This document shows, piece after piece, positions 5,968-51,280 of a stretch of DNA of 64,000 nucleotides. The notes below the pieces were generated by a model that searched no databases, was not told the DNA's origin, and was given only the letters and a program-made list of their open reading frames with translations. The stretch covers positions 893 to 64,892 of the forward strand of contig JBAYWE010000001.1 in the NCBI GenBank assembly GCA_041674185.1, given 5' to 3'. The DNA is from Minisyncoccota bacterium (GTDB lineage Bacteria; Patescibacteriota; Minisyncoccia; UBA6257; JAGOQP01). The stretch's first letter is position 1, and each line of letters starts with the position of its first letter. Made by a program: the position numbers and the translations under genes.

Positions 5968-7278
5968 TTATTTCTTACCCAAGAATGCATCCCCCACACG
6001 ATATGCTTCTCCCGCACCCATAGTAATGAGCAGTGAATCTTTGTCTATGTGTTTATAAACTTCTCGTACCGCACGTTCACACGAATCAGCATACACAGTC
6101 ACCTTTTCTTTCCGTCTTGCGCGAAGGGCTACAACAAGTTTTTGCGAAGAAATGGAAGGATCTTTTTTCTCTCGCGCTGCATAAATAGGAAGAATAATGA
6201 GTACATCGGGAATCAAAAAATTCTTTACAAAATCTTTGAATAACAGTTTCGTGCGCGAATACAAATGTGGTTGAAACACACATATAATTTTCTTATCAAT
6301 AAAATGATTTCGTATTGCGCGTAGAGTTGCGATAACTTCAGTCGGATGATGCGCATAATCATCATATATAATCATCCCCTGTTTTGTTATGCCTTTATAT
6401 TCTAACCGTCGCGCAGTTCCCGAAAACGAAGCGAGTGCTTTATAAATAGTACCCTGGGGAATATGGAGGGTGCGTAATACGGCAGACGCCGCGCGCATAT
6501 TCATAGCATTATGATCACCTATTAATTTTGCATCCGCAGGAGTAATAAGAGAACTGTAATCAATCACATGGCACGAAACAGCATCTGCGATACGGGCACA
6601 CGCAGAATCTTTCAAATTTGTAATTAAATATCCATTCTGGGGAATCTTTTGTGCGAATGCAGTAAATGCCTTAACAAGATTTGCCTTCGTTTTATAGTAA
6701 TCCAAATGATCATTATCTATATTCGTAATGACGGCAATGCGAGGATTTAAGTCTAAGAAAGATTTCCCATATTCGCACGCCTCAACCACAAAATAATCGC
6801 TTTTCCCAGCAATAAAGTTGGTTGGAATATCAGTAAGAAGACTCCCCACAATTACTGTAGGATCCTTTTTTGCTTGGAGAAGTCCCCAGGCAATCATCCC
6901 CGTCGTCGTTGTTTTTCCATGAGATCCTGCAACTGCAATCGTGTACATATCCGCCGAAATAATTCCCAGTGCCTGCGAATACGTGAAAGTTGGAATCCCT
7001 AGTTCTTGCGCGCGTACTAATTCTGGATTGTCATTTGAAACTGCCTTCGTGTAGATAACCACATCCACATCCTTTGTTATATGAGAAACAGTGTGTCCTT
7101 GCCAAATCCGCGCTCCTAATGACTGAAGATCTTTTACTAATGGAGAAACAACCATATCAGATCCAGTAATAATCTTCTTTTCTAACAAAAACTTACGCGC
7201 AATAGCGGATACACCAATTCCCCCAATACCAATAAAATGAATATGTTTTGCCTGTAACAAATAAGATGATATATCCAT
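5968..7278 (-). CDS. murC: UDP-N-acetylmuramate--L-alanine ligase MurC
   Basis: N-terminal IHFIGIGGIGVSAIA Rossmann motif, Mur ligase central motif GSHGKTTTT, ~436 aa. Confidence 0.85.
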   Translation of the reverse strand: MDISSYLLQAKHIHFIGIGGIGVSAIARKFLLEKKIITGSDMVVSPLVKDLQSLGARIWQGHTVSHITKDVDVVIYTKAVSNDNPELVRAQELGIPTFTYSQALGIISADMYTIAVAGSHGKTTTTGMIAWGLLQAKKDPTVIVGSLLTDIPTNFIAGKSDYFVVEACEYGKSFLDLNPRIAVITNIDNDHLDYYKTKANLVKAFTAFAQKIPQNGYLITNLKDSACARIADAVSCHVIDYSSLITPADAKLIGDHNAMNMRAASAVLRTLHIPQGTIYKALASFSGTARRLEYKGITKQGMIIYDDYAHHPTEVIATLRAIRNHFIDKKIICVFQPHLYSRTKLLFKDFVKNFLIPDVLIILPIYAAREKKDPSISSQKLVVALRARRKEKVTVYADSCERAVREVYKHIDKDSLLITMGAGEAYRVGDAFLGKK

Positions 7279-8643: not shown

Positions 8644-10215
8644 TTATTCTTGAGTTTCTTCTTCTGAGGTTTTAATTTCAGGAGATGGATCTATATGTGA
8701 ATCATGAGACTTTTGAAGAGAACCTCGAATTAAATCCTTTAATGCGTCCACATTCATTCGTTCTTCGATAGGCTTTCGCTCCCGTGGTGCCGACGAGACA
8801 TGACCATGGTCTCGTTTTTTCTGTATATCAGAAGACACATCTTTCTTAAGCACTTCGTGTAACGAACGTTCATCTCGACGAGATACCATTTCTCCCGCCT
8901 TATCTCCTACAGAGCCATAATAATCAGTACGAATCTTTTCGTCAACTCGTTCTTTAGAAATAGAGTATTTTGAACGTGACGATTGTAAAATAGCATCAAA
9001 AAGTGAGGGTGCGGGCAGTGGAGGTGGAGGAAGGGTTTTTGCAGAAAAAGGACGCGACGAAACACCATCTACCATAATACGCGCATAAATATGTGCGTTT
9101 GGTAAATTTACAAAATCACTTGCCAAAAATTCTTCAAAAAATTCTTTCTCCAAAAATTCTGCGTCATCCGCTCCCACCCGAAATGAAATCATAGTTCCCA
9201 CGTTTCCAAAAATAGCATCGCGCACTTTCGTATTTTTATCCTGTTCTAATTGAGCGATGTATTGATGCGCCACAATAAGAGAAAGACGATATTTACGAGC
9301 CTCAGAAAGAATTGTCGCGAATGATTCAGTTGCAAAGTTCTGAAATTCATCAACATAGAGAAAGAAATCCTTACGTTCCGCCATGGGAATATCTACACGA
9401 GACATAGCAGCTAACTGCAATTTCGTAATCAACATAGCTCCCAATAAATTAGAATTATCTTCTCCAATTTTTCCTTTAGACAAATTGATAATAATAATTT
9501 TTCCTTCATCCATTGCTTGCCGAAAATCAAAGGAAGATTTTACCTGTCCAACAATACTACGAATTAACGGGTTGGTAACAAATTGTCCAATCTTGTTTTG
9601 AATAGCGGCAACTCCTTCTGTTTCCAACTTCTGCGTATATTTTGCAAACTCATCAACCCAAAACGAACGGACGCTCGGATCTTGCAGATCATTCACAATT
9701 TTACGACGAAATTCTTTATCAGAATACATCTTCATAACCCCCAGTAACGTTGACCCAGGATATTCAAGGAGTGCCAACAAGGTATTATTGAGAATATATT
9801 CCATACGCGCAGACCATGCATCTGGCCATATTTTTTTAAAAACCGACATAAGCCCCGATGCCACCAAATGACGCATATCAAAATCAACCCGTTCTAGAGG
9901 ATTAAACGCAACAGGAAAATTAATATCTGCGGGGTTTATATAAATAACATCATCAACTCGATCTTCAGGAATAAAATGTAAAATTTCTTCAGCTGTTTCT
10001 CCATGAGGATCCACAAAACAGACACCGTGTCCCGCCTTCACATCAGAAATAACCATGTTTAAAAGAAGGGTGCTTTTCCCAGTACCTGATTTTCCAATAA
10101 TATACGTATGCTGACGACGATCTGCTAGTTTGATGCCAAACGTACGCTCTTGATTACGAAAATTAGTTTTTCCTAAATATAATATAGAATCTGCCATAAT
10201 AGTTTTCTCATTCAA
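8644..10215 (-). CDS. HerA/FtsK/VirD4-superfamily P-loop ATPase (DUF87 / T4SS coupling-protein-like), soluble
   Basis: Walker A IIGKSGTGKSTLL, then FVDPHGE (HerA/TraG-type motif), Walker B FFLYVDEFQNF, and a C-terminal Pro-rich/charged tail (LPPPPLPAPS...). No N-terminal TM segment. Confidence 0.6.
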   Translation of the reverse strand: MNEKTIMADSILYLGKTNFRNQERTFGIKLADRRQHTYIIGKSGTGKSTLLLNMVISDVKAGHGVCFVDPHGETAEEILHFIPEDRVDDVIYINPADINFPVAFNPLERVDFDMRHLVASGLMSVFKKIWPDAWSARMEYILNNTLLALLEYPGSTLLGVMKMYSDKEFRRKIVNDLQDPSVRSFWVDEFAKYTQKLETEGVAAIQNKIGQFVTNPLIRSIVGQVKSSFDFRQAMDEGKIIIINLSKGKIGEDNSNLLGAMLITKLQLAAMSRVDIPMAERKDFFLYVDEFQNFATESFATILSEARKYRLSLIVAHQYIAQLEQDKNTKVRDAIFGNVGTMISFRVGADDAEFLEKEFFEEFLASDFVNLPNAHIYARIMVDGVSSRPFSAKTLPPPPLPAPSLFDAILQSSRSKYSISKERVDEKIRTDYYGSVGDKAGEMVSRRDERSLHEVLKKDVSSDIQKKRDHGHVSSAPRERKPIEERMNVDALKDLIRGSLQKSHDSHIDPSPEIKTSEEETQE

Positions 10216-10248: not shown

Positions 10249-11484
10249 TTATTCAAGGGGTAAATTGGGAGGAGGACTACCGCGACGAGAATCAATTTTT
10301 TGCAAACGGGGTGCACGCGTTACATTCGCAGGAGCATGAAATAAAGTAGCAAGTTCTTCAGTATTTAACACAGGAAGTTTTTCATCAGCCGTTCTATTAG
10401 ACATACCAAAATAACGAGCAACATATGAATCATAAATCATACGCTTTTTTGAAAGAACGACTGATTTTTTATACCAAGGAAAAATTTTTCCCGGAATCCC
10501 CGCATAGAACGGCATAGAGGTAGGTTTTAATGCATTCATGGTTTGCGTATTAAATTGTTGAAATGCAGCCATAACAGTTCCCCAATTTTGACCATCAAAG
10601 GTATCTTTCTTATCAATATAAATAAAACGCATGGTCATTTCGAATATATGCTTCGAAACTTTATTCTCTACAGCTTTAATAATATCTTTCGTATTAGCAG
10701 AAACACCAGACATATTTAATATCCCCGCCTCATTTGCTTTCACCCCCTTTTTTTCTAATAATTCTTTTACTTCCTTTTCTGCTTCTTTTGCGATATCTAC
10801 GCCCGTTGGCTTTCCCGTAGGACTAACAAGAAGTTGAATCCAAATTTGTTCTTCTCCTTTTAATTTAGACATAATTTCAAATAACGGAGAAAGTGGGTCT
10901 ATTCCTTTTTCGTTCTTCATATCATTTCGCTCTTCAAAAAAATCATACGTACGAATGGGATAGGGATTTGCTTTTGCTAATTCAAACGCTGCGCCAAATA
11001 TATCATACGCATCATTCGGAAGAAGAGAGGGCATTTCCGCGGTATAGTCGGTCCCTGGAACAATTTCGGCCTCTGGGTATTGGGCATATAAAGCGGCTTC
11101 AACCATATTACGACGTGCGGTAGGAAGTCGTATAAAAAAATGAATACCATCAGCACGTCCTACGATTTCAAAAGAAATCCAGAGTTCAACTTTTCCATCT
11201 AAATATTTATCAAATGATTTAATACCAAACGAATAAATACCATAGAGCGTGGTAAATACATGTTCCATGGACTTTGGGGTGCGTACGTTATCAGCAGGAA
11301 ACCGTATCTCAAGCATTTCCCATTTTACATTCTTTAAAAATTCTCCTCGAATATAAAACAAGCGCACTTTCCAAAAAAGCGCAATAAAAAATACGGGAAC
11401 CATAAACCACGCAACCGTGGAAAGGGTCTGATTCAGACTCGAAAATGCAATTTGTATAAAGTCCACCATATCCGTATGAGACAT
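10249..11484 (-). CDS. Hypothetical single-pass membrane protein, ATPase partner
   Basis: 411 aa. N-terminal TM helix (VAWFMVPVFFIALFW) followed by a large soluble domain. 34 nt upstream of, and co-oriented with, the ATPase gene. Confidence 0.45.
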   Translation of the reverse strand: MSHTDMVDFIQIAFSSLNQTLSTVAWFMVPVFFIALFWKVRLFYIRGEFLKNVKWEMLEIRFPADNVRTPKSMEHVFTTLYGIYSFGIKSFDKYLDGKVELWISFEIVGRADGIHFFIRLPTARRNMVEAALYAQYPEAEIVPGTDYTAEMPSLLPNDAYDIFGAAFELAKANPYPIRTYDFFEERNDMKNEKGIDPLSPLFEIMSKLKGEEQIWIQLLVSPTGKPTGVDIAKEAEKEVKELLEKKGVKANEAGILNMSGVSANTKDIIKAVENKVSKHIFEMTMRFIYIDKKDTFDGQNWGTVMAAFQQFNTQTMNALKPTSMPFYAGIPGKIFPWYKKSVVLSKKRMIYDSYVARYFGMSNRTADEKLPVLNTEELATLFHAPANVTRAPRLQKIDSRRGSPPPNLPLE

Positions 11485-25123: not shown

Positions 25124-27703
25124 TTACTGAAACACAAAAGTTCCCTGTGCATCAATATCTACTTGTATCGTTGCTCCCCGATGGATTTCTCCTGATAATA
25201 TTTTCTGAGCAAATACCGCTTTGAGAGAATTATCAATAACCTTGCGAAGAGGACGCGCTCCAAACGAGGGATCATATCCTAATTCTGCAATACGATGTAC
25301 CGCTGCATCACTTATTTCCATTTGGATACCATTCGTTTCCTGCAATAACTTCTGTAATGTAGCAAGATTAAGTCGGGCAATTTGTTCTATATGTTCTTGA
25401 GCAAGAGGGCGAAACACAACGATATCAGAGAAACGATTTAAAAATTCAGGTTTAAATAATTCTGTTAATTTCTTCTTGAGTGTATCACCAAACTGAGAAA
25501 CATGCTCCCCTGCTTGAATACGCTCCTGAATAAATACTGAGTGTGCATTCGATGTTGCAATGATAATCGTATTTTGAAAATCAACCACCCGTCCGAGTGA
25601 ATCGGTTAAACGGCCATCGTCCAAGACCTGTAAGAATAAGTTTAAAATATCCGGATGGGCTTTTTCTAATTCATCAAGCAATACAAGACTATACGGATGT
25701 GCGAGTACTGCTTCAGTAAGCGAACCAGAAACACGACCATCAGGAGAACCAATGAATCGAGTGATGGATTCTTTTTGTTGATATTCAGACATATCAAAAC
25801 GCGCCATTAAGGAATCCGATCCAAAATTGATCTTTGCAAGTAATTTAGAGAGTTCAGTTTTACCAACTCCTGTGGGGCCGACAAACAAGAACGAAGCAAT
25901 AGGACCTCCGCTGCGAGAAAGCCCGCTTCTATATTGACGCAATGCTTGAGAAACAGCGGTTACTGCTTCTTCTTGATCAATAAAATGTTTGTGTATTTCA
26001 TCTTCTAAATGCAATAATTTTTCAGCCTCAATTCCAGAAACTGCATGAATAGGAATTTGGACCCGTCGTTCGACAGTCGCAATAACATCAGACCCCTTCA
26101 CGACTCGCTCTCCTCGTTGTAATATACCCGAAATAACTTCAGCTAGTAACTCTTGAGCACTCGAGGGTAATGGTTTCGCGTGAAGATATTTTGCAGCCAA
26201 TACCGCCGCTTGACGAATCGCAGAAAAATAAATAGTTACTTTGTGTTTTTTCTCCATCACCAACGCATCATAACTTAATAAACGTACCGTATCGGAGACC
26301 GATAATTCTTGTATACGAATCGATTGGAAGAGTCCTGAAATAGCGGTGTTTGATTGTATATATTCTTTTTCTTCGCGAGGATAGGTAGATCCAACCACAG
26401 GGAATATATTATTACGCAGAATAGGCATAAGTATATCTACAAGAAGAACGCCTCCTATTTGCGGTTGTGCAAGAACATGAACATCAGAAATGTATAATAT
26501 AATATTTCCTGCTCGTAGAATTTCATCAGCAACACGAGAAAGTCTCCCTGAAACATCTTCAGCAGAGGCCCCTGCAATTAATTGACTCAACGAAAGAGAA
26601 ACGACACGCCTATCAAAGAGCGATCCAGGCACTGAATCAGAAATAATCTCAAAGGCGAGGTGATACAACAATGATTCCTTCCCAACTCCCTGTTCTCCCA
26701 CAAGAAGTACATTACGATTTGTAGATCCAGACAACATATCAACCATGCGTCGATACTCATCTTCATGACCAATAAGAAACCCCTCTAACCCCATACGAGC
26801 ATACTCAGTAATATCTTCGGAAAATTCATCAAGGGTTGGGGTGGGTCGAGAGGTAAGAGTTCGATTGACTCTATGCGCATGAACACGAGATTGAGCCTGG
26901 GCAAATCCACTTAAAGAAGCGGGAATAGATGATCGTGATATAAAACCACCAAAAGCTACGGCCTCAGAAATATCAGATCCGGTAATATGAAAGAGGTCTA
27001 ATATTTTAGTGATGCGCGGATGAGAGATGTTCATTAAAGCGGCGAAAAAAGATTCTTCGTCTACGATAGGTTTACGCAACATACGGGCAATCTGAACAGC
27101 TTCTATACACACAACTCCAATACGGTCCGTAAGTTGTGCTCGATATTCGTGCGGTGCCATAGTAGAAGTAGGAGCCGACGCTTGTGGTGCGGTTTTTGTT
27201 TTTTCATATTCCTGAGAAAGTTCACGAATAAATTCATCAAAAGATATATCAAGTCGTTCAATAATAACACGGATAGGATGACGCGTTACGGCAAGTTGAT
27301 GAGCAAGCCAACACCATAAATCCCCCCCTCGTGTTTCAGTACGTTCAAGAGCAGAAAGCGTTAAGCGAAGTGTTTTTCTATTCATACAGAGAGCCACATT
27401 ATTTTGAGGCACTTGCCCCGCATATAATTCATCAAGGGTATAATGAGCTCGTCGTATATGCACAATATAATCAAGAAAGAAACAAAACAATAACATACCA
27501 AACCACTGAATACGAGAAACATCAGAAAGAAGAAATGCTATGGTTGCCCCCCACCACACAATAAGAAAAATACTCGAAATAATACGTACAAGAGAACGAG
27601 CCATGGGAGACAAAAGAAAAAGACGCCTATGAAAAGTAAACTGAGAGGGATCAATAAATGAAAATTGTTTTTTAGAAAAAATATGCATATCGAAATATAT
27701 CAC
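25124..27703 (-). CDS. Membrane-anchored Hsp100/Clp-family AAA+ protein (ClpC/ClpB-like) with degenerate D1 ATPase
   Basis: Two N-terminal TM helices. D1 Walker A GEQGVGKE (K-E instead of K-T/S) and Walker B LYISDVH (no DE). D2 is intact: GPTGVGKT, LLDELEKAH, sensor-2 GARPLRK. No long M-domain coiled coil and no IGF/LGF loop seen. Confidence 0.7.
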   Translation of the reverse strand: MIYFDMHIFSKKQFSFIDPSQFTFHRRLFLLSPMARSLVRIISSIFLIVWWGATIAFLLSDVSRIQWFGMLLFCFFLDYIVHIRRAHYTLDELYAGQVPQNNVALCMNRKTLRLTLSALERTETRGGDLWCWLAHQLAVTRHPIRVIIERLDISFDEFIRELSQEYEKTKTAPQASAPTSTMAPHEYRAQLTDRIGVVCIEAVQIARMLRKPIVDEESFFAALMNISHPRITKILDLFHITGSDISEAVAFGGFISRSSIPASLSGFAQAQSRVHAHRVNRTLTSRPTPTLDEFSEDITEYARMGLEGFLIGHEDEYRRMVDMLSGSTNRNVLLVGEQGVGKESLLYHLAFEIISDSVPGSLFDRRVVSLSLSQLIAGASAEDVSGRLSRVADEILRAGNIILYISDVHVLAQPQIGGVLLVDILMPILRNNIFPVVGSTYPREEKEYIQSNTAISGLFQSIRIQELSVSDTVRLLSYDALVMEKKHKVTIYFSAIRQAAVLAAKYLHAKPLPSSAQELLAEVISGILQRGERVVKGSDVIATVERRVQIPIHAVSGIEAEKLLHLEDEIHKHFIDQEEAVTAVSQALRQYRSGLSRSGGPIASFLFVGPTGVGKTELSKLLAKINFGSDSLMARFDMSEYQQKESITRFIGSPDGRVSGSLTEAVLAHPYSLVLLDELEKAHPDILNLFLQVLDDGRLTDSLGRVVDFQNTIIIATSNAHSVFIQERIQAGEHVSQFGDTLKKKLTELFKPEFLNRFSDIVVFRPLAQEHIEQIARLNLATLQKLLQETNGIQMEISDAAVHRIAELGYDPSFGARPLRKVIDNSLKAVFAQKILSGEIHRGATIQVDIDAQGTFVFQ

Positions 27704-28062
27704 GAACCAAAAATTCCCCTATAGATAAGAATCGCAGGAAAAAGCGCCCATACAATATAGATCCCAAAGGTTACAATTCCAGTACCCACATATAAAATTC
27801 CCCCAAAGAGAATTTTTATAAAACGATATAAGAATCCAAGCACATACCCCACAATATTACGTTCTTGATACAGAGGCTGGAATAAAAATCGCACATTAAT
27901 ACGAATGGCGAGTTTTCGCTCACACATACGCAAAAAACGCATCCATACCCCATAGAAAGCGAAAAAGCCATCTACATACCAATGACGAAAAAAGACACCC
28001 ACACGAAACACGAACGTCTTTGAGAGATATATAACGACTTGCGAGACCATTTCCATATACAT
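27700..28062 (-). CDS. Hypothetical small membrane protein
   Basis: 120 aa, hydrophobic. Its stop overlaps the clp-like gene start by 4 nt (ATGA coupling). Confidence 0.4.
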   Translation of the reverse strand: MYMEMVSQVVIYLSKTFVFRVGVFFRHWYVDGFFAFYGVWMRFLRMCERKLAIRINVRFLFQPLYQERNIVGYVLGFLYRFIKILFGGILYVGTGIVTFGIYIVWALFPAILIYRGIFGS

Positions 28063-28135
28063 AAGTATATCAAAAAACAGATAAAAATGTTATCACAAAT
28101 ATAAAACTCCTCTCTGTTTCCAATTATACATGTAT

Positions 28136-28163
28136 AAAAGACCGCCATTAAAGGCGGTCTTTT
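28136..28163 (-). terminator. Rho-independent (bidirectional) terminator
   Basis: aaaagaccgcc-attaa-ggcggtctttt. On the minus strand it is followed by TTTTAT, just downstream of the small ORF 28202..28357. Confidence 0.6.
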
Positions 28164-28201
28164 ATACAATCTTGTAATGAGAACCTTCTCATATAGAGAG
28201 A

Positions 28202-28357
28202 CTAAACCTGTTCTGGAGTTTCCTCTTGAGGAACTGCATCTAAAGCCGGAGCTTCTGTAGTAGTTACTTCTTCTTCCTTTTTTTCTTCTGTTGAAGCCAC
28301 AACGGGTTCGGTTGAACCTACAATTTCGTCAGGTACTATGTTTGTATTTTGATCCAT
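28202..28357 (-). CDS. Small acidic protein (51 aa) or small-transcript unit
   Basis: MDQNTNIVPDEIVGSTEPVVASTEEKKEEEVTTTEAPALDAVPQEETPEQV*, with its own sigma70-like promoter and terminator. Below the ORF-track length cutoff. Confidence 0.3.
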   Translation of the reverse strand: MDQNTNIVPDEIVGSTEPVVASTEEKKEEEVTTTEAPALDAVPQEETPEQV

Positions 28358-28479: not shown

Positions 28480-28482
28480 TTC

Positions 28483-28516
28483 TCCATATTTTTTCGCGAT
28501 CGCGAAAAAATATGGA
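28483..28516. repeat. Perfect palindrome copy 1: TCCATATTTTTTCGCGATCGCGAAAAAATATGGA
   Basis: 34-bp perfect inverted repeat. The same core recurs at 49382 and 50508. Confidence 0.8.
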
Positions 28517-28597
28517 AAGTTATCTACAGAGAAATTATAGCTAAAAAAGAAGCACCCCTCTCTCCCTTCCTACCCCTCATTCCTCACAACTCACGAC

Positions 28598-46844: not shown

Positions 46845-48701
46845 TTAAGGTAAGGTTACACCAGCTCCTGTGGTCTTATACACACTTGAATCAAGTGATG
46901 TAGTGACAGGAGAAGCTAAAGCAGAATCTGTGCTCCAAATGATATTTTTAACAAACATCATGTAAGAACCAGAAGTTACTGTTGAAGGAATTTCTCCCTT
47001 TACAGTAATGCTTGCAGTAGTATCCTTTGAAACTTTGTAAACTCCACCAGTGTACGCATTGTATCCGGTTACAACCAAGCTGTTATTAGCAGTTGATGAA
47101 CCAGTTGCACCTGCGCTGACTGAAGTTGCATAGGTAAGATTCGTTGAGGTTGAATCGCTCAAGTAGATATCTCCACCTGCTGCGGTTACGCTCAATACGA
47201 AGGTTGCCATACCTTTATAGGTAGGAGTTGCATTTGCTCCTGCAGTGTTCTGAGTAGTGATACCAGAAGCTGAGGTCAATGATACAACCAAACCTTTGCT
47301 CAATACAGTCATGGTGTCAGACAAAGCTGAACCACTCAAGTATCCTCCAGTGACTGAATCGCCACGTGAGTTTTCTGCTACGAATCCTGCTGCAGAATCC
47401 AAGCTTGCGGTTGAAGTTGCTGCAGTGGTGGTAGCACCAGTGTAGTCAGCTTTAATCGTAATGGTCTTGGTTGAATCTGCTGGTACATAGAGGGTCATGC
47501 TGGTAAAGGTTGCACGATTGCTTGAAACAGTCGCTGAACCCAACAAGGTTGATCCATCATATGCATATACAGTTGATTCTGAAGCATTTCCTCCCAAGGT
47601 TACTACAAAGTCAGTAACTTTGATTTGATCCTTTTCAGAGCGCAAATCAACAGCCAATAAGGTTGCTTCTTTTACATCTCCGTTAGTATCAGACACAATG
47701 TTTGCTGCCTTTGGTGAATTTCCGTTCTTGGAAACAGTCAAAGTAGCATTGGTAACTTGGCTCTTTTCAGGATTGAATGTGCGGCTGATAGCTGAAGCTG
47801 GGCCGTATTGATCAATTCCCAAACCATCCTTTCCACGTACTCCGTTTGCAGGAACAGTAACGGTGCGATTTGCTGCGTTTGCATCTGCAGTATCAATGGT
47901 GCTGTACAAATCACCAGCTACAGTAAGAACTTTGTATTCACCTGCTTTTACAAGGAATGAAAGTCCACTAACAGTAACATAGTAATTGGTTCCATCTTTA
48001 ACCACAGTGTTTGAATTCAAAGCAGATGATGACAAGACGGTTGAACCATCCATGACATACAAGGTGCTCAAAATTTTGTTGTAAAGCGCAGTTGAGCTAC
48101 CAAGATCAATCTTGACGCGCTCTACGTTTACATCACCATTGGTTGCCTTAAGTTTCAAACCAATTAAGGCAAACTTGGTTGCTCCTTCATAAGCCTTCTG
48201 TCCATCGGCTGGAGTTGGGTTCAACTCAACAGTCAAAGTTCCTTCGGTTTTGGTCATTCCGGTAGGAGTGGTTGGAGTAGTAGGGGTAGTAGGAGTGGTT
48301 GGGGTAGTAGGGGTCGTAACAACACTCATTGAATTGAAGTGTGCGCGAGTTACTGCTCCAAAGTATCCAACAGCAGGAGAGATTCCTACTGATTTTTGAT
48401 AAGCGGCCAACGCAGCTTTAGTCATAGGACCAAAGAATCCGGTTGGTGCTACTGACAAGAATCCTTTTGAATTAAGGAATCCTTGCAAAGCGGTTACTTC
48501 TGCTCCCTTTGAACCAACAGTGAGGTTGCTGGTGTAAGTTGCTGAAGTTGCTGGGGTTGTACCTGCTTGTGCCTGTAATGCTTGAATCTGAGCCAAGAGG
48601 GCTTGGATTTGAGCGTTGATGTCAGTCTGCGCGGACGCTGACGGAGCAACAATTGCTACAGCCAACAAAGCAAATACGAAAATTTTTGAAAATTTATTCA
48701 T
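46845..48701 (-). CDS. Secreted Thr/Ser-rich surface (S-layer-like) protein with PG_binding_1 domain and (TTP)n linker
   Basis: Signal peptide. Coiled AQIQALLAQIQALQAQ. Peptidoglycan-binding motif GSKGAEVTALQGFLNSKGF...FGPMTKAALAAYQKSVGI. (TTP)x5 linker. ~450 aa beta-rich, T/S/G/A-dominated domain. Confidence 0.6.
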   Translation of the reverse strand: MNKFSKIFVFALLAVAIVAPSASAQTDINAQIQALLAQIQALQAQAGTTPATSATYTSNLTVGSKGAEVTALQGFLNSKGFLSVAPTGFFGPMTKAALAAYQKSVGISPAVGYFGAVTRAHFNSMSVVTTPTTPTTPTTPTTPTTPTGMTKTEGTLTVELNPTPADGQKAYEGATKFALIGLKLKATNGDVNVERVKIDLGSSTALYNKILSTLYVMDGSTVLSSSALNSNTVVKDGTNYYVTVSGLSFLVKAGEYKVLTVAGDLYSTIDTADANAANRTVTVPANGVRGKDGLGIDQYGPASAISRTFNPEKSQVTNATLTVSKNGNSPKAANIVSDTNGDVKEATLLAVDLRSEKDQIKVTDFVVTLGGNASESTVYAYDGSTLLGSATVSSNRATFTSMTLYVPADSTKTITIKADYTGATTTAATSTASLDSAAGFVAENSRGDSVTGGYLSGSALSDTMTVLSKGLVVSLTSASGITTQNTAGANATPTYKGMATFVLSVTAAGGDIYLSDSTSTNLTYATSVSAGATGSSTANNSLVVTGYNAYTGGVYKVSKDTTASITVKGEIPSTVTSGSYMMFVKNIIWSTDSALASPVTTSLDSSVYKTTGAGVTLP

Positions 48702-49381
48702 ATCGAATTTTTGTTTGTTCTGAATTAAGTGATTTTTGTAATTGTTAGAAAATTCTTGCAGCGGTGACTACCCTTATTACCGACCCACTACTCCATCGGT
48801 GAGGACGAATAAGTAAGTTAATAATAGTGATCACGCTTGTGTGCGAGAATCTTGACTTCCCATAAGGAAGCCACGCGCTTGTATAATAGACAAGTATTAT
48901 ACCAGCGCGCGAATCCCCTATTTAGTTTTAGTCCGGATGAGATAAAGAAAAACCTCATAGAGATGAGGCGTTAAAAACAACAGTATACAATACTGAATCA
49001 TACAATATATATACAGAGCTCGTATTCCGCCTCACACGGAAAAACTTTTATTGATTTATATAGTACAAAGATAGTATAGCAAGTATTGGCATAAATGTCC
49101 AATAAACCTTTTATACTTATCTCTACCCCGTCACATATCTGTCTTCGTCAGGGCTTATTATAAGAAACGAGCAACCCTCCAAAACGTTACAAGAATACAT
49201 CTCAAGGGAGTTCTGGGGGATATTATTCTGCTTATACATACCCACATATACCCTCATTTTACACTTTCACGCACACAATGAAGCGCACCATACACACATA
49301 AAATATACACATAATATCTATATCCGCACACATCCATATATATATAACAGATACCCCTCGCACACACACCCTGTACACAAC

Positions 49382-49417
49382 TTTCCATATTTTTTCGCGA
49401 TCGCGAAAAAATATGGA
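49382..49417. repeat. Perfect palindrome copy 2: TTCCATATTTTTTCGCGATCGCGAAAAAATATGGAA
   Basis: 36-bp perfect inverted repeat, ~90 nt downstream of the stop of the HTH gene. Confidence 0.8.
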
Positions 49418-49508
49418 AGTCTTACCCAAAGAGGAAAAACCAACCAAAAACGCCCCTATAATGGCGTTTTATCTATATATTCTATATATAATCGTATATA
49501 AAAGCTTA

Positions 49509-50384
49509 TTATTGCTCTTTTTTTCGTAGTCTTAAAAACGAATTCGGCCCCCCATTCCCCACACGCTCAACAATCTTACTATCCACCAAGGTTTTAATAT
49601 CATATCGCACCGTGCGATCACTCACCTTCGGAAGACGTTCTAAAATGTCATTAATATTACAAAAATTCTTACTCTTCAATATAGAAACGATCCGCTCCTT
49701 ACGCTCTGCAGAAGAAAGGACAACGCGATCATTTTGAGCTGTTTCTCTCGATATTTCATTGCCAGTATTTCCGGAAATAGAACCCCTATTTTTTTCCGAC
49801 TTATTTCCGGAAAACACATTGCCAGACTCAGTAATATCGTTTGCCGGACTTTTTCCGGAAAATGATAGGGCATTGTAAGAATCAGTAAAAGAGCCATTTT
49901 GGGTGGCTTTTCCGGAAAGGACTTTGCCAGACTCGGAAATATCGTTTGCCGGATTAACGTCTATATGAGAACTCTCACCATGGGGATATATCTCGCTTGT
50001 GTTGGCATCAGAATGTATCATCTGGGCGAAGTCGGAAAAAAGCACAGGGGGTTCGGAAAACATATGTTCTATTGATTCCTGTTCAAGGATTCCAGAGTTT
50101 TCTTCAAGAGTTTGTTTGGCTTCTATAAGAAGTACCTGTAAGGCACCTATTTCTCTCAAGAGCACCGCAGAATTTATTGCGGTAATATCTCCCAATTTTG
50201 AACCAAGCTGAACTACCTCCTCAAGAGCATCTAACGTCTCACTATTTTTGTGAGAAAAATACTGTAAAGCACGGTCTTCGAGAAGTTGTTTGAGACCTAC
50301 ATGCGGAACAACCTGAGCCACACGAAACACAGCCCATACCACCTCAAAAGAACGCTTTTTTATAAATTCACTTGGGTAGTTCAT
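49509..50384 (-). CDS. Winged-helix (DeoR/HTH_11-like) DNA-binding protein with internally repeated low-complexity middle region
   Basis: C-terminal ERKERIVSILKSKNFCNINDILERLPKVSDRTVRYDIKTLVDSKIVERVGNGG is an HTH_11/DeoR-type wHTH. The middle has two ~35-aa repeats (ANDISESGKVLSGK / ANDITESGNVFSGNK) encoded by a ~105-bp imperfect tandem DNA duplication carrying 4 TTCCGGAA palindromes. Confidence 0.55.
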   Translation of the reverse strand: MNYPSEFIKKRSFEVVWAVFRVAQVVPHVGLKQLLEDRALQYFSHKNSETLDALEEVVQLGSKLGDITAINSAVLLREIGALQVLLIEAKQTLEENSGILEQESIEHMFSEPPVLFSDFAQMIHSDANTSEIYPHGESSHIDVNPANDISESGKVLSGKATQNGSFTDSYNALSFSGKSPANDITESGNVFSGNKSEKNRGSISGNTGNEISRETAQNDRVVLSSAERKERIVSILKSKNFCNINDILERLPKVSDRTVRYDIKTLVDSKIVERVGNGGPNSFLRLRKKEQ

Positions 50385-50400
50385 AACGTGTAATTGACTT

Positions 50401-50430
50401 AAAAATATACCACCCCACCCAAGGAGTCAA
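50401..50430 (-). promoter_or_regulatory. Candidate sigma-70 promoter for the HTH gene (TTGACT-N17-TATTTT)
   Basis: Minus strand TTGACTccttgggtggggtggtaTATTTT, ~20 nt upstream of ATG 50384. Confidence 0.25.
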
Positions 50431-50507
50431 GTGAAGATATCATTCCTACTGTTTTCGTGTTTTTATCATTTTTACTAAAATCACTGTTATAAAAAACCTC
50501 CCAACCT

Positions 50508-50545
50508 TTTCCATATTTTTTCGCGATCGCGAAAAAATATGGAAA
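50508..50545. repeat. Perfect palindrome copy 3: TTTCCATATTTTTTCGCGATCGCGAAAAAATATGGAAA (38 bp)
   Basis: Same core as copies 1 and 2, ~125 nt upstream of the HTH gene start. The flank GGAAAGTTAT[C/A][T/C]ACAGA is shared with copy 1. Confidence 0.8.
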
Positions 50546-50903
50546 GTTATACACAGATAAAAAAATATCAAAAAATAAGAATGATATAATAAAAACCATA
50601 CGAGAGAGATACTATAAAAAAACAAAAGAATAAGAAAAATAAAAAAATCTATTTCTCTCAAATCATACAATTTATTTTCTCTCCTCTGCGTCACAGCCCT
50701 CTCTCTCAGTCCTCATCTACACCTCTCGTGAGGATAACCGGAAGAATCTTCCCTCATCATACACGCCGACCTATTGCTACGACTTTTATAGCACCATACT
50801 TACACTGCATAAGTGAGTGGTTCTTTTTTATAATATACCCGGTACCCCACCCAAAAACAAAACTATTTTAAAAAATAAATATAATTTAATTAAAACATAA
50901 CAC

Positions 50904-51149
50904 ATGGACGAACCTATTATACAAACAATCCCCCAAGACCCCACACCCACTCGTCATCAAACACCGTGGTGGAAATTTGCGATTGGATTTTTAGTTATTA
51001 TCGCACTCGGCATTATTGTAGATGCTATTTGGGTACAGTACTTTAGCCCCGCCGCCCAAGACACAAAACAAATGGAGGAACAATACGCGGCGTACGAACA
51101 ACAACAAAAAGAATATGAAGAGGCAATGCAACAAGACACTCCACAATAA
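50904..51149 (+). CDS. Hypothetical small membrane protein
   Basis: 81 aa, one TM (WWKFAIGFLVIIALGIIV), Gln/Glu-rich tail. Followed by a terminator. Confidence 0.3.
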   Translation: MDEPIIQTIPQDPTPTRHQTPWWKFAIGFLVIIALGIIVDAIWVQYFSPAAQDTKQMEEQYAAYEQQQKEYEEAMQQDTPQ

Positions 51150-51221
51150 ATAAATTCTCTCGCACAAATAACACAAAACATCTATTACGAAAAATTTACT
51201 TATTATATACACCTTCTTCCT

Positions 51222-51246
51222 AAAACCCCGCATCCGCGGGGTTTTA
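51222..51246. terminator. Bidirectional rho-independent terminator
   Basis: aaaaccccgc-atcc-gcggggtttt, between the small + ORF and the convergent clpP. Confidence 0.65.
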
Positions 51247-51280
51247 GAAAACTTTATTCAAAGAATACTACATTAAAAAC

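What the first reader, a model, noticed from the sequence alone, without database searches (positions are those of the whole stretch)
49382..50545. Winged-HTH gene bracketed by two copies of the palindrome and containing an internal ~105-bp tandem duplication with four TTCCGGAA sites
The gene 49509..50384 encodes a C-terminal DeoR/HTH_11-type wHTH and an N-terminal alpha-helical region. Its low-complexity middle is produced by an imperfect tandem duplication (49804-49850 versus 49907-49954), giving peptide repeats ANDISESGKVLSGK / ANDITESGNVFSGNK. The DNA repeats carry four TTCCGGAA mini-palindromes. The whole gene is flanked, ~90 nt after its stop and ~125 nt before its start, by the 36/38-bp palindromes. 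Possible explanations are autoregulation through flanking operators, a repeat-variable regulator (slipped-strand or recombinational length variation), or a small mobile unit.
Basis: seen in the sequence. Interest (0 to 1): 0.55.

Follow-up and report, generated by a model that had tools for sequence, protein, structure and literature searches.

The report
Regulator gene carrying two cis-element systems
A conserved chromosomal regulator gene of an uncultured CPR bacterium carries, in the DNA coding its floppy linker, an array of short motifs kept at the nucleotide level in several reading frames, and is flanked by long perfect palindromes of a CPR-wide class that travels with a different, PaaX/Cas2-like protein; neither feature appears to have been described.

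Summary
In detail: gene 49509..50384(-), identical palindromes 91 nt after its stop and 124 nt before its start, a 45-nt repeat at 105-nt spacing, and four TTCCGGAA sites.

The interpretation needs revising.

1. The gene is not mobile. It sits in a gene cluster conserved in nine related loci. No repeat copy-number variation was seen among strains.

2. The "duplication" and the TTCCGGAA sites belong to an array of eight direct copies of (AG)TCYGGMAA.
- Orthologs keep this motif in two or three reading frames (ESGK / SPA / VRQ).
- Codon choice is strongly skewed towards it (p = 4e-16).
- A distant family member has 12 copies of the variant TTCGGCAA in the gene, plus inverted copies in its promoter region.
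- This points to DNA-level binding sites, probably for the protein itself.

3. The palindromes belong to a CPR-wide class: genome-specific outer arms around a T-tract–CGATCG–A-tract centre.
- They occupy orthologous positions in the nearest relative.
- The arms diverge by mirrored substitutions.
- They bracket PaaX_M-type (winged-helix + Cas2-like) genes in about ten genomes, with the geometry of the E. coli PaaX operator.
- They are most likely that protein's sites, not operators of the bracketed gene. A REP/RAYT-like reading remains open.

No binding has been tested.

The parts
49509..50384 (-). Gene for a 291-aa protein: N-terminal four-helix bundle, ~90-residue disordered linker, C-terminal DeoR-type winged HTH
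   Evidence: ORF. Pfam HTH_DeoR, E = 4e-7. AF2 model. 43 full-length homologs. 634 cluster representatives at E <= 1e-10.
49768..49955 (-). Array of eight direct copies of (AG)TCYGGMAA in the linker-coding DNA. Gene positions 432, 454, 469, 526, 537, 559, 574, 610. Read as S-G-K/N in frame 0 and as (S/N)-P-A-N in frame 2.
   Evidence: Eight of the 18 occurrences in the whole 64-kb window, counting both strands, are here.
49804..49848 (-). Copy 2 of the 45-nt repeat core (peptide PANDITESGNVFSGN)
   Evidence: the repeat finder family D1.
49909..49953 (-). Copy 1 of the 45-nt repeat core (peptide PANDISESGKVLSGK), 105 nt from copy 2
   Evidence: the repeat finder family D1, 89% identity. The same two-unit layout is at the same gene coordinates in L006, L001 and L045.
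49383..49418 (.). Downstream palindrome (copy B), a perfect 36-mer, TTCCATATTTTTTCGCGATCGCGAAAAAATATGGAA
   Evidence: As single-stranded DNA it folds at -15.8 kcal/mol, z = -6.4. The orthologous position in L006 carries a palindrome with different arms.
49371..49381 (-). One-sided extension of copy B (GTTGTGTACAG on the - strand), a degenerate DnaA-box-like element
49447..49470 (-). Canonical intrinsic terminator of the gene (AAAACGCC-loop-GGCGTTTT plus a T-run), between the stop codon and palindrome B
   Evidence: The same order, gene then terminator then palindrome, is seen in L006.
50402..50430 (-). Promoter-like site TTGACT-N15/17-TATATT about 20 nt upstream of the ATG, conserved with L006
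50508..50545 (.). Upstream palindrome (copy C), a perfect 38-mer. It lies between the divergent promoters of this gene and of the truncated ~190-aa gene.
   Evidence: It is orthologous to L006 4946-4983. A palindrome is present at this intergenic position in every cluster examined except L040, where none was found upstream of the gene.
50546..50556 (+). Extension of copy C, GTTATACACAG. It contains TTATACACA, which matches the DnaA-box consensus TTATNCACA.
   Evidence: The orthologous site is a perfect TTATCCACA in L001 and L037.
28481..28518 (.). Third copy of the palindrome (copy A). It lies between the 3' end of a thioredoxin-reductase-like gene and a small ORF followed by a ClpB-like operon.
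28519..28529 (+). Extension of copy A, GTTATCTACAG
50904..51149 (+). 81-aa remnant of the ~190-aa membrane-protein gene that in relatives heads the divergent operon (190 aa, SNase/LTD nuclease, PaaX_M-like). The rest of that operon is deleted in the window.
   Evidence: 87% identity to the N-terminus of the L006 184-aa protein, and 58% identity to the L001 protein.

Best explanation
The gene is a stable, syntenic chromosomal gene of a Paceibacterota (CPR) bacterium. It encodes a member of a large CPR family with a four-helix bundle, a disordered linker and a C-terminal DeoR-type wHTH. Two separate DNA-level cis-element systems overlie it.

(1) The internal repeat.
- It is part of an array of eight direct copies of the motif (AG)TCYGGMAA, written into the DNA that codes the disordered linker.
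- The family keeps this motif at the nucleotide level in two or three reading frames. The recurring linker peptides ESGK/N, SPA(N/K/S/R) and VRQ are by-products of it.
- Inferred: these are protein-binding sites, most likely for the gene's own wHTH. The protein would then bind inside (and in some relatives upstream of) its own gene, either to autoregulate by roadblock or to nucleate a larger complex. The layout recalls lambda ori iterons inside the O gene, or parS inside parB.

(2) The flanking palindromes.
- They belong to a CPR-wide class of 30-54-bp (mostly 36-54-bp) perfect palindromes: genome-specific outer arms of 5-12 nt, then a T-tract, (NN)CGATCG(NN), an A-tract, and the mirrored arm.
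- They are dispersed in intergenic DNA at unit boundaries.
- Inferred: they are binding sites of a dimeric PaaX_M-type (winged-helix + Cas2-like) protein whose own gene they bracket in many genomes. Here they would mark or regulate the boundaries of the cluster's transcription units.
- They are not operators of the bracketed gene and not transposon ends.
- The window has lost the cluster's PaaX-like gene, so the cognate protein would have to be encoded elsewhere in the genome.

Shown: anatomy, conservation, nucleotide-level constraint, positional orthology, mirrored evolution, and the association with the PaaX-like gene. Inferred: who binds what, and the regulatory outcome.
For: Synteny. The order PaaX_M-like, SNase/LTD giant protein, ~190-aa gene, then divergently the wHTH gene, a PG_binding protein and Wzy_C, holds in L001, L004, L006, L037-L040 and L045, with varying outside context.

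Internal motif.
- There are 8-9 TCYGGMAA copies per ortholog in two frames. In L037-L039 they occupy all three frames, often at an 11-nt period. Spacings of 11 and 22 nt account for 20 of 48 intervals.
- The decamer is virtually absent from the flanking 10 kb on either side, and all but a few one-mismatch copies have the same orientation.
- SG is coded TCY-GGM in 34 of 41 cases, against 60 of 321 in neighbouring genes (Fisher p = 4e-16). PA is coded CCG-GCA in 14 of 18 cases, against 15 of 173 (p = 3e-10).
- 38 of 43 homologs carry at least three of the motif-derived peptides.
- Distant member L046 has 12 copies of the variant TTCGGCAA in three frames. It also has 4-5 copies in both orientations in the non-coding upstream DNA, including TTGCCGAA-N10-TTCGGCAA.
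- Both peptide repeats change together between strains: LANDIMESG twice versus LANDITESG twice.

Palindromes.
- The core TTTTTCGCGATCGCGAAAAA occurs in 23 genome loci, mostly CPR. It is always extended by arms that are palindromic, genome-specific, and mostly identical among copies within a genome.
- Window and L006 palindromes align at the same positions in 81%-identical intergenic DNA, yet differ by at least 4 (upstream copy) and 6 (downstream copy) mirrored substitutions.
- Copies within one genome also differ by mirrored changes (L038, L039, L042).
- PaaX_M-like genes are bracketed or abutted by such palindromes in L001, L007, L016, L018, L025, L037-L040 and L045, and in 4 of 4 randomly picked family members, L041-L044.
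- The E. coli PaaX operator is TGATTC-N27-GAATCA, which has the same wide-spaced inverted geometry (PMC9493321).
- In L039, L042 and L044 the outer arms are what stays constant between copies.
- The palindromes lie outside the predicted mRNA of this gene: beyond the terminator, and 85 nt upstream of the -35 box.
Against: - No binding has been tested, so both protein-to-site assignments rest on co-location.
- No PaaX-like gene is found in the 64-kb window or in the fetched stretches around the identical palindrome on seven metagenome contigs (about 50 kb in all).
- About 9 of ~42 palindromes lie between two gene 3' ends. Copies sit next to rRNA, tRNA, pilin and housekeeping genes. That fits a dispersed REP-like repeat better than a classical promoter operator.
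- Perfect symmetry of the non-contact spacer, and perfect identity among copies, is more than a transcription factor should need.
- The CGATCG centre is conserved across phyla without explanation.
- One genome (WY3.bin166) holds at least three arm types.
- The conserved helix-3 residues of the wHTH are a generic DeoR-HTH signature, so they say nothing about the target.
- In the window's own subfamily the internal motif is not found in the promoter region.
Confidence: 0.5

Rival explanations
1. REP/RAYT-like system. The palindromes are a dispersed family of repeats that is copied or homogenised among intergenic sites by the winged-helix + Cas2-like protein they bracket. That protein would act on hairpin or cruciform DNA rather than as a repressor. 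The copies around the wHTH gene would then be bystanders or boundary insertions.
For: - Copies within a genome are mostly identical, while arms are genome-specific.
- A single cognate gene is flanked on both sides, including 3' sides that face no promoter.
- Copies are dispersed in unrelated and convergent intergenic regions, roughly one per 20-40 kb.
- Mirrored substitutions preserve hairpin potential even in the spacer.
- All three window copies share the one-sided 11-nt extension, as if a ~50-nt segment had been copied.
- The window's upstream site changed palindrome type relative to L006 and L045.
- The Cas2-like domain keeps the FDIPE motif of the Cas2 beta-1 strand.
Against: - Palindromes occupy the same cluster positions across orthologs of only 34-68% identity. 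That indicates long-lived cis elements rather than mobile ones.
- No HUH/Y1 transposase is present, and no REP-type GTAG motif.
- Copy number appears to be tens, not hundreds.
- L044 has non-palindromic spacers.
- Quasi-palindrome template-switch mutation could keep the symmetry without any selection on a hairpin.
Confidence: 0.2
2. The two palindromes are operators of the bracketed wHTH protein, which represses its own gene by binding both and looping the 1.1 kb between them.
For: - The bracket is also present in the nearest relative, L006.
- An upstream palindrome is present in every ortholog cluster examined except L040.
- A family with a four-helix bundle, a long linker and a wHTH could bridge distant sites.
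- The window keeps three perfect copies although its cluster has lost the PaaX-like gene.
Against: - The downstream copy exists only in the window and L006.
- The same palindrome class occurs in Saccharibacteria and other CPR loci next to PaaX_M-like genes, with no member of this family in the fetched stretches.
- The palindrome's distance to the conserved promoter differs (85 versus 31 nt), and the arms differ although the HTH is nearly unchanged.
- Copies are dispersed near unrelated genes.
- A better candidate site for this protein exists inside and upstream of family genes.
Confidence: 0.13
3. The internal repeats act only at the protein level. They would be short linear peptide motifs (ANDIxESGN and similar) in a disordered linker, duplicated and kept alike by gene conversion. 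The nucleotide identity would be a side effect of recent duplication or slippage, possibly allowing frame or length variation.
For: - The linker is disordered and varies in length across the family.
- The two 15-residue repeats evolve in concert.
- An 11-nt unit in perfect tandem, as in L039, would be prone to slippage.
Against: - The same decamer is read in three frames, giving unrelated peptides.
- It is conserved down to 34% protein identity.
- The codon-choice skew is extreme.
- The variant motif also occurs in non-coding upstream DNA in both orientations.
- No copy-number or frame variants were seen among strain-level cluster members.
Confidence: 0.1
4. The palindromes act as RNA hairpins, as terminators, mRNA stabilisers or RNase III sites.
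For: - Stable 16-17-bp hairpins are predicted.
- The function would be orientation-independent, which fits positions at unit ends.
Against: - The stem is flanked by a 5' T-run and a 3' A-run, the reverse of an intrinsic terminator.
- Canonical terminators already stand 17-30 nt in front of the downstream copies.
- The upstream copy lies upstream of the conserved promoter.
- Apart from rare one-base mismatches, the symmetry is strict and even the loop is self-complementary.
- There is no Rfam match beyond chance hits to hairpin precursors.
Confidence: 0.05

Closest known systems
DeoR-family transcription regulators (Pfam HTH_DeoR, PF08220)
   Same: The wHTH matches the DeoR HTH model above its cut-off and carries the signature S-x-R-T-[LIV]-R-x-D ... 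G ... R ... GG.
   Different: The HTH is at the C-terminus, not the N-terminus. There is no DeoR C-terminal sugar-phosphate sensor domain. Instead there is a CPR-specific four-helix bundle and a ~90-residue disordered linker. NCBIfam equivalog scores are far below cut-off.
PaaX repressor and its operator TGATTC-N27-GAATCA (E. coli, Pseudomonas)
   Same: The proteins that the palindromes bracket contain the PaaX central Cas2-like domain (E = 1e-10 to 1e-21) behind a winged helix. The palindromes have the same geometry: short specific inverted arms about 20-28 bp apart, about 36-48 bp in all.
   Different: The CPR proteins are 175-225 aa and lack the PaaX C-terminal ligand domain. There is no paa pathway nearby. 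The spacer is itself palindromic, with a conserved CGATCG centre. The sites bracket the gene and are dispersed. Binding is untested.
REP elements and their RAYT genes
   Same: Short (~35-45 bp), genome-specific, intergenic palindromic repeats, with a single cognate gene flanked on both sides by copies.
   Different: The flanked gene is not a Y1/HUH transposase. The palindromes are perfect and have a conserved centre rather than a 5' GTAG. Copy number appears far lower. Positions are conserved between genera.
Phage lambda ori iterons inside the O gene; parS inside parB/spo0J (from general knowledge)
   Same: Repeated binding sites for a DNA-binding protein lie inside that protein's own coding sequence, in a segment coding a flexible linker.
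   Different: There is no sign of an origin or a partition system. GC skew is monotonic across the window, and the locus is a chromosomal surface-protein and nuclease cluster. The motif is 8-11 nt, present in 8-12 copies, and read in three frames.
HIP1 (GCGATCGC), the highly iterated palindrome of cyanobacteria
   Same: The octamer GCGATCGC forms the centre of the window's palindrome. CGATCG and GATC are methyltransferase sites in cyanobacteria (PMC4390886).
   Different: HIP1 is a bare 8-mer present thousands of times, including in genes. Here there are tens of 36-48-bp intergenic palindromes. The centre varies (ACGATCGT, CCGATCGG, GCGGCCGC) or is absent.

Membership tests
DeoR-family regulator | HTH_DeoR DNA-binding domain | tested here: met
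   Pfam PF08220, E = 4.2e-7, 30 bits against a cut-off of 21, residues 228-278.
DeoR-family regulator | N-terminal position of the HTH plus a C-terminal DeoR sensor/oligomerisation domain (DeoRC) | tested here: not met
   The HTH is C-terminal. There is no DeoRC hit at E <= 1. NCBIfam DeoR/GlpR equivalogs score 12-24 bits against cut-offs of 244-400.
Insertion sequence / MITE / composite transposon | Transposase or recombinase gene, terminal inverted repeats, target-site duplication, variable genomic location | tested here: not met
   48-nt inverted repeats are present. But the only gene inside is the wHTH gene. The flanks (..cacaccc / ataaaaa..) show no duplication. The gene and both palindromes are at orthologous positions in relatives.
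Phase- or length-variable repeat locus | Repeat copy number differs among close strains | tested here: not met
   Members of seven 90%-identity clusters differ in length only at the N-terminal start call. The linker repeats are constant in number. No read-level data were available.
Intrinsic (Rho-independent) terminator | GC-rich stem-loop followed by a T-run on the transcribed strand | tested here: not met
   The palindrome reads T-run, GC core, A-run on both strands. The terminator scan does not call it, but does call a separate terminator at 49447-49470.
REP/RAYT | Cognate flanked gene is a Y1 (HUH) RAYT transposase | tested here: not met
   The flanked genes hit PaaX_M and Cas2 only.
REP/RAYT | Genome-specific intergenic palindromic repeats, with copies flanking the cognate gene | tested here: met
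REP/RAYT | High copy number (hundreds per genome) | not testable with these tools
   Only fragments were available: 3 copies in 64 kb, and 8 copies on 7 metagenome contigs whose full lengths total ~305 kb, counted by scanning the whole collection.
PaaX-type operator | Two short inverted repeats separated by ~27 bp | tested here: met
   For example TTCCATAT-N20-ATATGGAA in the window, TGTCCGC-N22-GCGGACA in L039, and TACCATA-N14/20-TATGGTA in L044. The reference operator comes from PMC9493321.
PaaX-type operator | Bound by a PaaX-family protein; promoter-proximal | not testable with these tools
   Binding needs an experiment. About a fifth of the sites are not next to any gene start.
Chromosomal replication origin | Cluster of DnaA boxes with a switch in GC skew and gene orientation | tested here: not met
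   Single DnaA-box-like 9-mers abut the palindromes. But the boxes are not enriched, and cumulative skew is monotonic across the window.
Known RNA families (Rfam) | Covariance-model match at the gathering score | tested here: not met
   Only tmRNA and a tRNA in the window. The region 48600-50700 gives only sub-threshold hits to miRNA hairpin models.

The most novel reading that the evidence does not exclude
Two undescribed things at once.

(i) A large CPR family of regulators whose disordered linker is dual-purpose DNA. It would be an array of the protein's own binding sites, kept at the nucleotide level and translated in whichever of the three frames it happens to fall, so that the linker peptide sequence is largely a by-product.

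(ii) A CPR-wide system of perfectly symmetric intergenic palindromes maintained by, or co-evolving with, a winged-helix + Cas2-like protein. It would be a REP/RAYT-like partnership built on a Cas2 fold rather than an HUH transposase, marking the boundaries of transcription units in these very small genomes.
Probability: 0.3. Interest if true: 0.85.

Novelty: new variant of a known kind. Interest (0 to 1): 0.68.

Why it matters
CPR/Patescibacteria make up a large share of bacterial diversity, and almost nothing is known about how they regulate genes or organise their genomes. Three points follow.

1. The region offers a clean, statistically strong case of a coding segment under nucleotide-level rather than protein-level constraint. 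The same motif is read in three frames across a family with more than 600 clusters at 50% identity. This suggests that some "low-complexity linkers" are cis-regulatory DNA in disguise.

2. It defines a widespread class of palindromic elements with a candidate cognate protein, PaaX_M/Cas2-like. Pairs of protein and site can be read directly from genomes and tested in vitro without culturing the organisms.

3. The elements punctuate a conserved cluster that holds a giant secreted SNase/LTD nuclease and surface proteins. In related genomes they also lie upstream of type IV pilin genes. These are functions thought to be central to the DNA-scavenging, host-attached lifestyle of CPR bacteria.

Tried and rejected
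- **Heat-shock operator (CIRCE/HrcA-like).** The idea came from the nearby clpP and ClpB-like genes. It was dropped because other copies lie next to pilin, rRNA, tRNA, murG and prfA-like genes, and the sequence resembles no known heat-shock operator.
- **Empty site versus occupied site.** The hypothesis was insertion of the LTD cassette by recombination at the palindrome. It was rejected because the window retains an 81-aa remnant of the cassette's first gene (87% identity). The window therefore has an internal deletion, not an empty site.
- **Replication origin.** This was suggested by the DnaA-box-like extensions, the GATC centres and the iteron-like array. It was rejected on monotonic GC skew and the lack of DnaA-box enrichment.
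- **Invariant recognition helix as evidence for a conserved target.** Rejected as an argument, because the conserved residues are the generic DeoR-HTH signature.
- **Similarity between palindrome arms and the internal decamer** (GTCC, GGCAA). It is weak and inconsistent across genomes, so it is not claimed.
- **Avd / 23S-rRNA-IVS relationship of the N-terminal bundle.** The only support is a weak Foldseek hit (2gsc, E = 8e-3), with no sequence support. It is left open.
- **Sequence search of the PDB** found nothing informative.
- **Literature searches** for the palindrome, for CPR palindromic motifs and for Cas2-like PaaX proteins found no prior description.
- **Search for a PaaX-like gene** in the window and in the metagenome contigs that share the window's palindrome found none.
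- **The genome-collection scan** did not return the window's own genome, so no whole-genome census was possible.
Full report
**1. Observation**

The window is a low-GC (about 38%) stretch of a Candidatus Paceibacterota (CPR) metagenome-assembled genome. The product of ORF 49509..50384(-) is 100% identical to an NCBI protein named [quoted passage not shown] on a 69-kb contig.

- The 32-mer CCATATTTTTTCGCGATCGCGAAAAAATATGG occurs exactly three times, at 28484, 49385 and 50511. None is expected by chance.
- The two copies around the gene are 37-nt identical. With their outer flanks they form 48-nt inverted repeats that are 94% complementary.
- They lie 91 nt after the stop codon and 124 nt before the start codon.
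- A 45-nt segment recurs at 105-nt spacing with 89% identity.
- Four of the window's five TTCCGGAA sites lie in the gene, against 1.3 expected for the whole window.
- Tandem Repeats Finder sees no array. Only the first ~45 nt of each 105-nt unit is still alike.

**2. The protein and its family**

- Pfam finds HTH_DeoR at residues 228-278 (E = 4e-7) and nothing else.
- An AlphaFold2 model built from 23 homologs gives three parts:
  - a confident four-helix bundle, residues 5-100, pLDDT above 90;
  - a disordered stretch, residues 128-219, pLDDT below 40;
  - a confident winged HTH, residues 225-286.
- Foldseek against the PDB gives only weak, generic matches. They include the four-helix bundle 2gsc at E = 8e-3 and many wHTH repressors. 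A profile search of PDB sequences gives nothing useful.
- The word-indexed search found 43 full-length homologs. A full profile search found 634 cluster representatives at E <= 1e-10 and 1767 at E <= 1e-3. Most are 200-260 aa, with the two folded domains matched separately around a variable linker.
- The protein has a DeoR-type HTH but is not a DeoR-family regulator in architecture. The HTH is C-terminal and there is no sensor domain.

**3. The gene is syntenic, not mobile, and not repeat-variable**

In nine loci carrying orthologs of 34-68% identity the same cluster recurs:
- on one strand, a PaaX_M-like winged-helix + Cas2-like gene, a giant SNase/LTD protein of 1260-1710 aa, and a ~190-aa membrane protein (the PaaX_M-like gene is seen in six of the nine; L004 has an unannotated 140-aa ORF there, and the L006 contig ends before that position);
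- divergently, the wHTH gene, a 500-900-nt spacer, a PG_binding-domain surface protein and Wzy_C.

The DNA outside the cluster differs between loci. The neighbours are nusA-clpP in the window, L001, L004 and L045.

The window has lost the nuclease and the PaaX-like gene. Its ORF 50904-51149(+) is an 81-aa remnant, 87% identical to the N-terminus of the 184-aa L006 protein.

Within 90%-identity clusters, length differences are start-codon calls only. The number of linker repeats does not vary.

**4. The internal repeat is a nucleotide-level motif array**

On the coding strand the 8-mer TCYGGMAA (TCCGGAAA, TCCGGCAA or TCTGGCAA, usually preceded by AG) occurs eight times within ~190 nt. These are eight of the 18 occurrences in the entire window on both strands.

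The motif is read in more than one frame.
- In the window it is read as TCY-GGM-AAx, giving S-G-K/N, and as (AG)T-CCG-GCA-Axx, giving (S)-P-A-N.
- Orthologs L006, L001, L004 and L045 have 8-9 copies at matching positions.
- In L037, L038 and L039 (34-37% identity) the unit (G)AGTCCGGCAA(G) occurs 5-8 times in all three frames. It gives ESGK, SPA(S/R) and VRQ, partly as perfect 11-nt tandems.

Further properties point the same way.
- Spacings of 11 and 22 nt are the commonest, 20 of 48 intervals.
- The decamer is essentially absent from the 10 kb on either side, and nearly every copy has the same orientation.
- Codon choice confirms the constraint. SG is TCY-GGM in 34 of 41 cases, against 60 of 321 in neighbouring genes (p = 4e-16). 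PA is CCG-GCA in 14 of 18, against 15 of 173 (p = 3e-10).
- 38 of 43 homologs carry at least three of the derived peptides.
- More distant subfamilies show analogous peptide sets: IRQ/VRQ, NSA/SSA and FGN.
- In the one distant case where DNA could be fetched (L046), the variant TTCGGCAA occurs 12 times in three frames inside the gene. It also occurs 4-5 times in both orientations in the 248 nt of upstream non-coding DNA, including the inverted pair TTGCCGAA-N10-TTCGGCAA.

A motif that persists in non-coding DNA in both orientations, and in coding DNA regardless of frame, is a DNA-level site. The simplest reading, which is inferred, is a binding site of the gene's own product. It would have been accommodated in a linker whose amino-acid sequence matters little.

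The two 15-residue peptide repeats also change in concert between strains. That fits homogenisation or selection on the DNA.

**5. The palindromes are a CPR-wide class**

*Distribution and architecture.*
- A scan of one genome per species for the 20-nt core TTTTTCGCGATCGCGAAAAA returned 23 loci. Most are from Saccharibacteria, Parcubacteria, Moraniibacteriota, WS2 and unclassified Patescibacteria.
- In nearly all of these loci the core is extended by further palindromic arms. The arms are genome-specific and mostly identical among copies within a genome.
- Ortholog clusters of the wHTH family carry palindromes of the same build with other arms and slightly different centres: ACGATCGT, GACGATCGTC and CCGATCGG.
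- Other PaaX-like loci have GCGGCCGC centres or non-palindromic spacers.

*Positional orthology with mirrored divergence.*
- The window's two palindromes align with those of L006 at the same positions within intergenic DNA that is otherwise 81% identical.
- Their arms nevertheless differ by at least four (upstream copy) and six (downstream copy) substitutions, each mirrored on the other arm.
- Copies within one genome also differ by mirrored changes (L038, L039, L042).
- The two-fold symmetry itself is therefore maintained. The cause could be selection on a hairpin or cruciform, or quasi-palindrome template-switch correction.

*Position relative to the gene.*
- The downstream palindrome follows a canonical terminator by 17-30 nt in both genomes.
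- The upstream one lies 85 nt (window) or 31 nt (L006) upstream of a conserved TTGACT/TATATT promoter.
- This argues for a DNA-level role rather than an RNA-level one.
- Only the window and L006 have the downstream copy. The upstream copy, in the divergent intergenic region, is seen in every cluster except L040.

**6. Who owns the palindromes**

A 175-225-aa protein with a winged helix and the PaaX central Cas2-like domain (Pfam PaaX_M, E = 1e-10 to 1e-21) is tightly bracketed or abutted by these palindromes.
- This holds in L001, L007, L016, L018, L025, L037-L040 and L045.
- It also holds in all four family members picked at random from a homolog search, L041-L044.
- The E. coli PaaX operator is TGATTC-N27-GAATCA (PMC9493321). 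That is the same wide-spaced inverted geometry.
- Where copies within a genome differ, the outer arms are the constant part (L039, L042, L044).

I therefore assign the palindromes to the PaaX_M-like protein rather than to the bracketed wHTH protein.

There are caveats.
- No such gene lies in the window or in the fetched stretches around the identical palindrome on seven metagenome contigs (about 50 kb in all).
- Those copies lie in unrelated contexts: between convergent prfA-like and murG genes, beside 16S rRNA and tRNA genes, and upstream of several type IV pilin paralogs.
- About a fifth of all instances lie between two gene 3' ends.
- This dispersed pattern, together with perfect identity among copies and a shared one-sided 11-nt extension in all three window copies, keeps a REP/RAYT-like reading alive. 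In that reading the Cas2-like protein acts on the hairpins and homogenises them.

**7. Verdict**

- The gene is an ordinary resident of a conserved cluster, not a mobile or phase-variable unit.
Neither has been described in the literature I could search.
- Confidence is high for the anatomy and for the nucleotide-level constraint.
- Confidence is moderate that the motifs and the palindromes are protein-binding sites.
- Confidence is lower for the specific assignments of protein to site, and for what binding achieves.

Noticed in passing
window 48702-49101 (- strand); L006 6330-6800; L001 11050-11520: The ~400-nt leader of the PG_binding surface-protein gene is strongly conserved between genomes. 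It has a promoter-like site (49101-49073) and an internal terminator-like hairpin with a T-run (48969-48952). It has near-invariant blocks, for example ATTCGTCCTCACCGATGGAGTAGTGGGTCGGTAATAAGGGTAGTCA. There is no Rfam match. It is a candidate new riboswitch or attenuator leader.
   Followed up: partly
window 50546-50556, 28519-28529, 49371-49381; L001 ~9783-9792; L037 ~9876-9885; L040 2843-2888: A DnaA-box-like 9-mer abuts the palindromes. It reads TTATACACA, TTATCTACA and TTGTGTACA in the window, and is a perfect TTATCCACA at the orthologous site in L001 and L037. It forms both outer arms of the L040 palindrome. It is not an origin: there is no skew switch and no box enrichment.
   Followed up: partly
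window 50904-51149 (+) and 51150-51280: The SNase/LTD giant nuclease gene and the PaaX_M-like gene, present in the relatives examined (L004 has an unannotated 140-aa ORF in place of the latter), are deleted here. What remains is an 81-aa N-terminal remnant of the ~190-aa membrane-protein gene next to the clpP terminator.
   Followed up: yes
L031, L033, L036 (starts); L032, L034 (ends): Five metagenome contigs break 250-375 nt from a copy of the palindrome, inside the conserved N-terminus (FTLIELLIVIGILAIL...) of type IV pilin-like genes. Several pilin paralogs share both the N-terminal coding sequence and an upstream region containing the palindrome.
   Followed up: partly
L006, L008, L023 (MAG WY3.bin166): One genome carries at least three palindrome types with different arms and centres: GGCCAAAG..GACGATCGTC, CCTCTCAGG..CGCGATCGCG and TCCATAT..CACGATCGTG. 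The third resembles the window's type.
   Followed up: no
L043 2888-2941 and 3521-3572; L041 2950-2987 and 3527-3564: PaaX_M-like genes in other CPR lineages are bracketed by palindromes centred on GCGGCCGC instead of CGATCG, up to 54 bp long. In L044 the arms TACCATA/TATGGTA are separated by non-palindromic spacers.
   Followed up: partly
window 25124-28357 (- strand): Downstream of palindrome copy A lie a 51-aa highly acidic ORF (28202-28357), a bidirectional terminator-like palindrome (28131-28168), a 120-aa hydrophobic ORF, and a ClpB-like AAA+ protein with an unusual hydrophobic N-terminal region.
   Followed up: no
L001 ~11300-11350; L006 ~6560-6610: A short tandem repeat, GAAATT(A/G) repeated 4-5 times, sits inside the conserved leader of the PG_binding gene. 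It is absent from the window.
   Followed up: no
L011, L013, L015, L019, L028: The 20-nt core also occurs once each in MAGs not labelled CPR: Gammaproteobacteria, Trichodesmium, Pseudonocardiaceae, Verrucomicrobiia and Calditrichota. Some copies have palindromic extensions. These may reflect mis-binning, HIP1 in the cyanobacterium, or chance.
   Followed up: no
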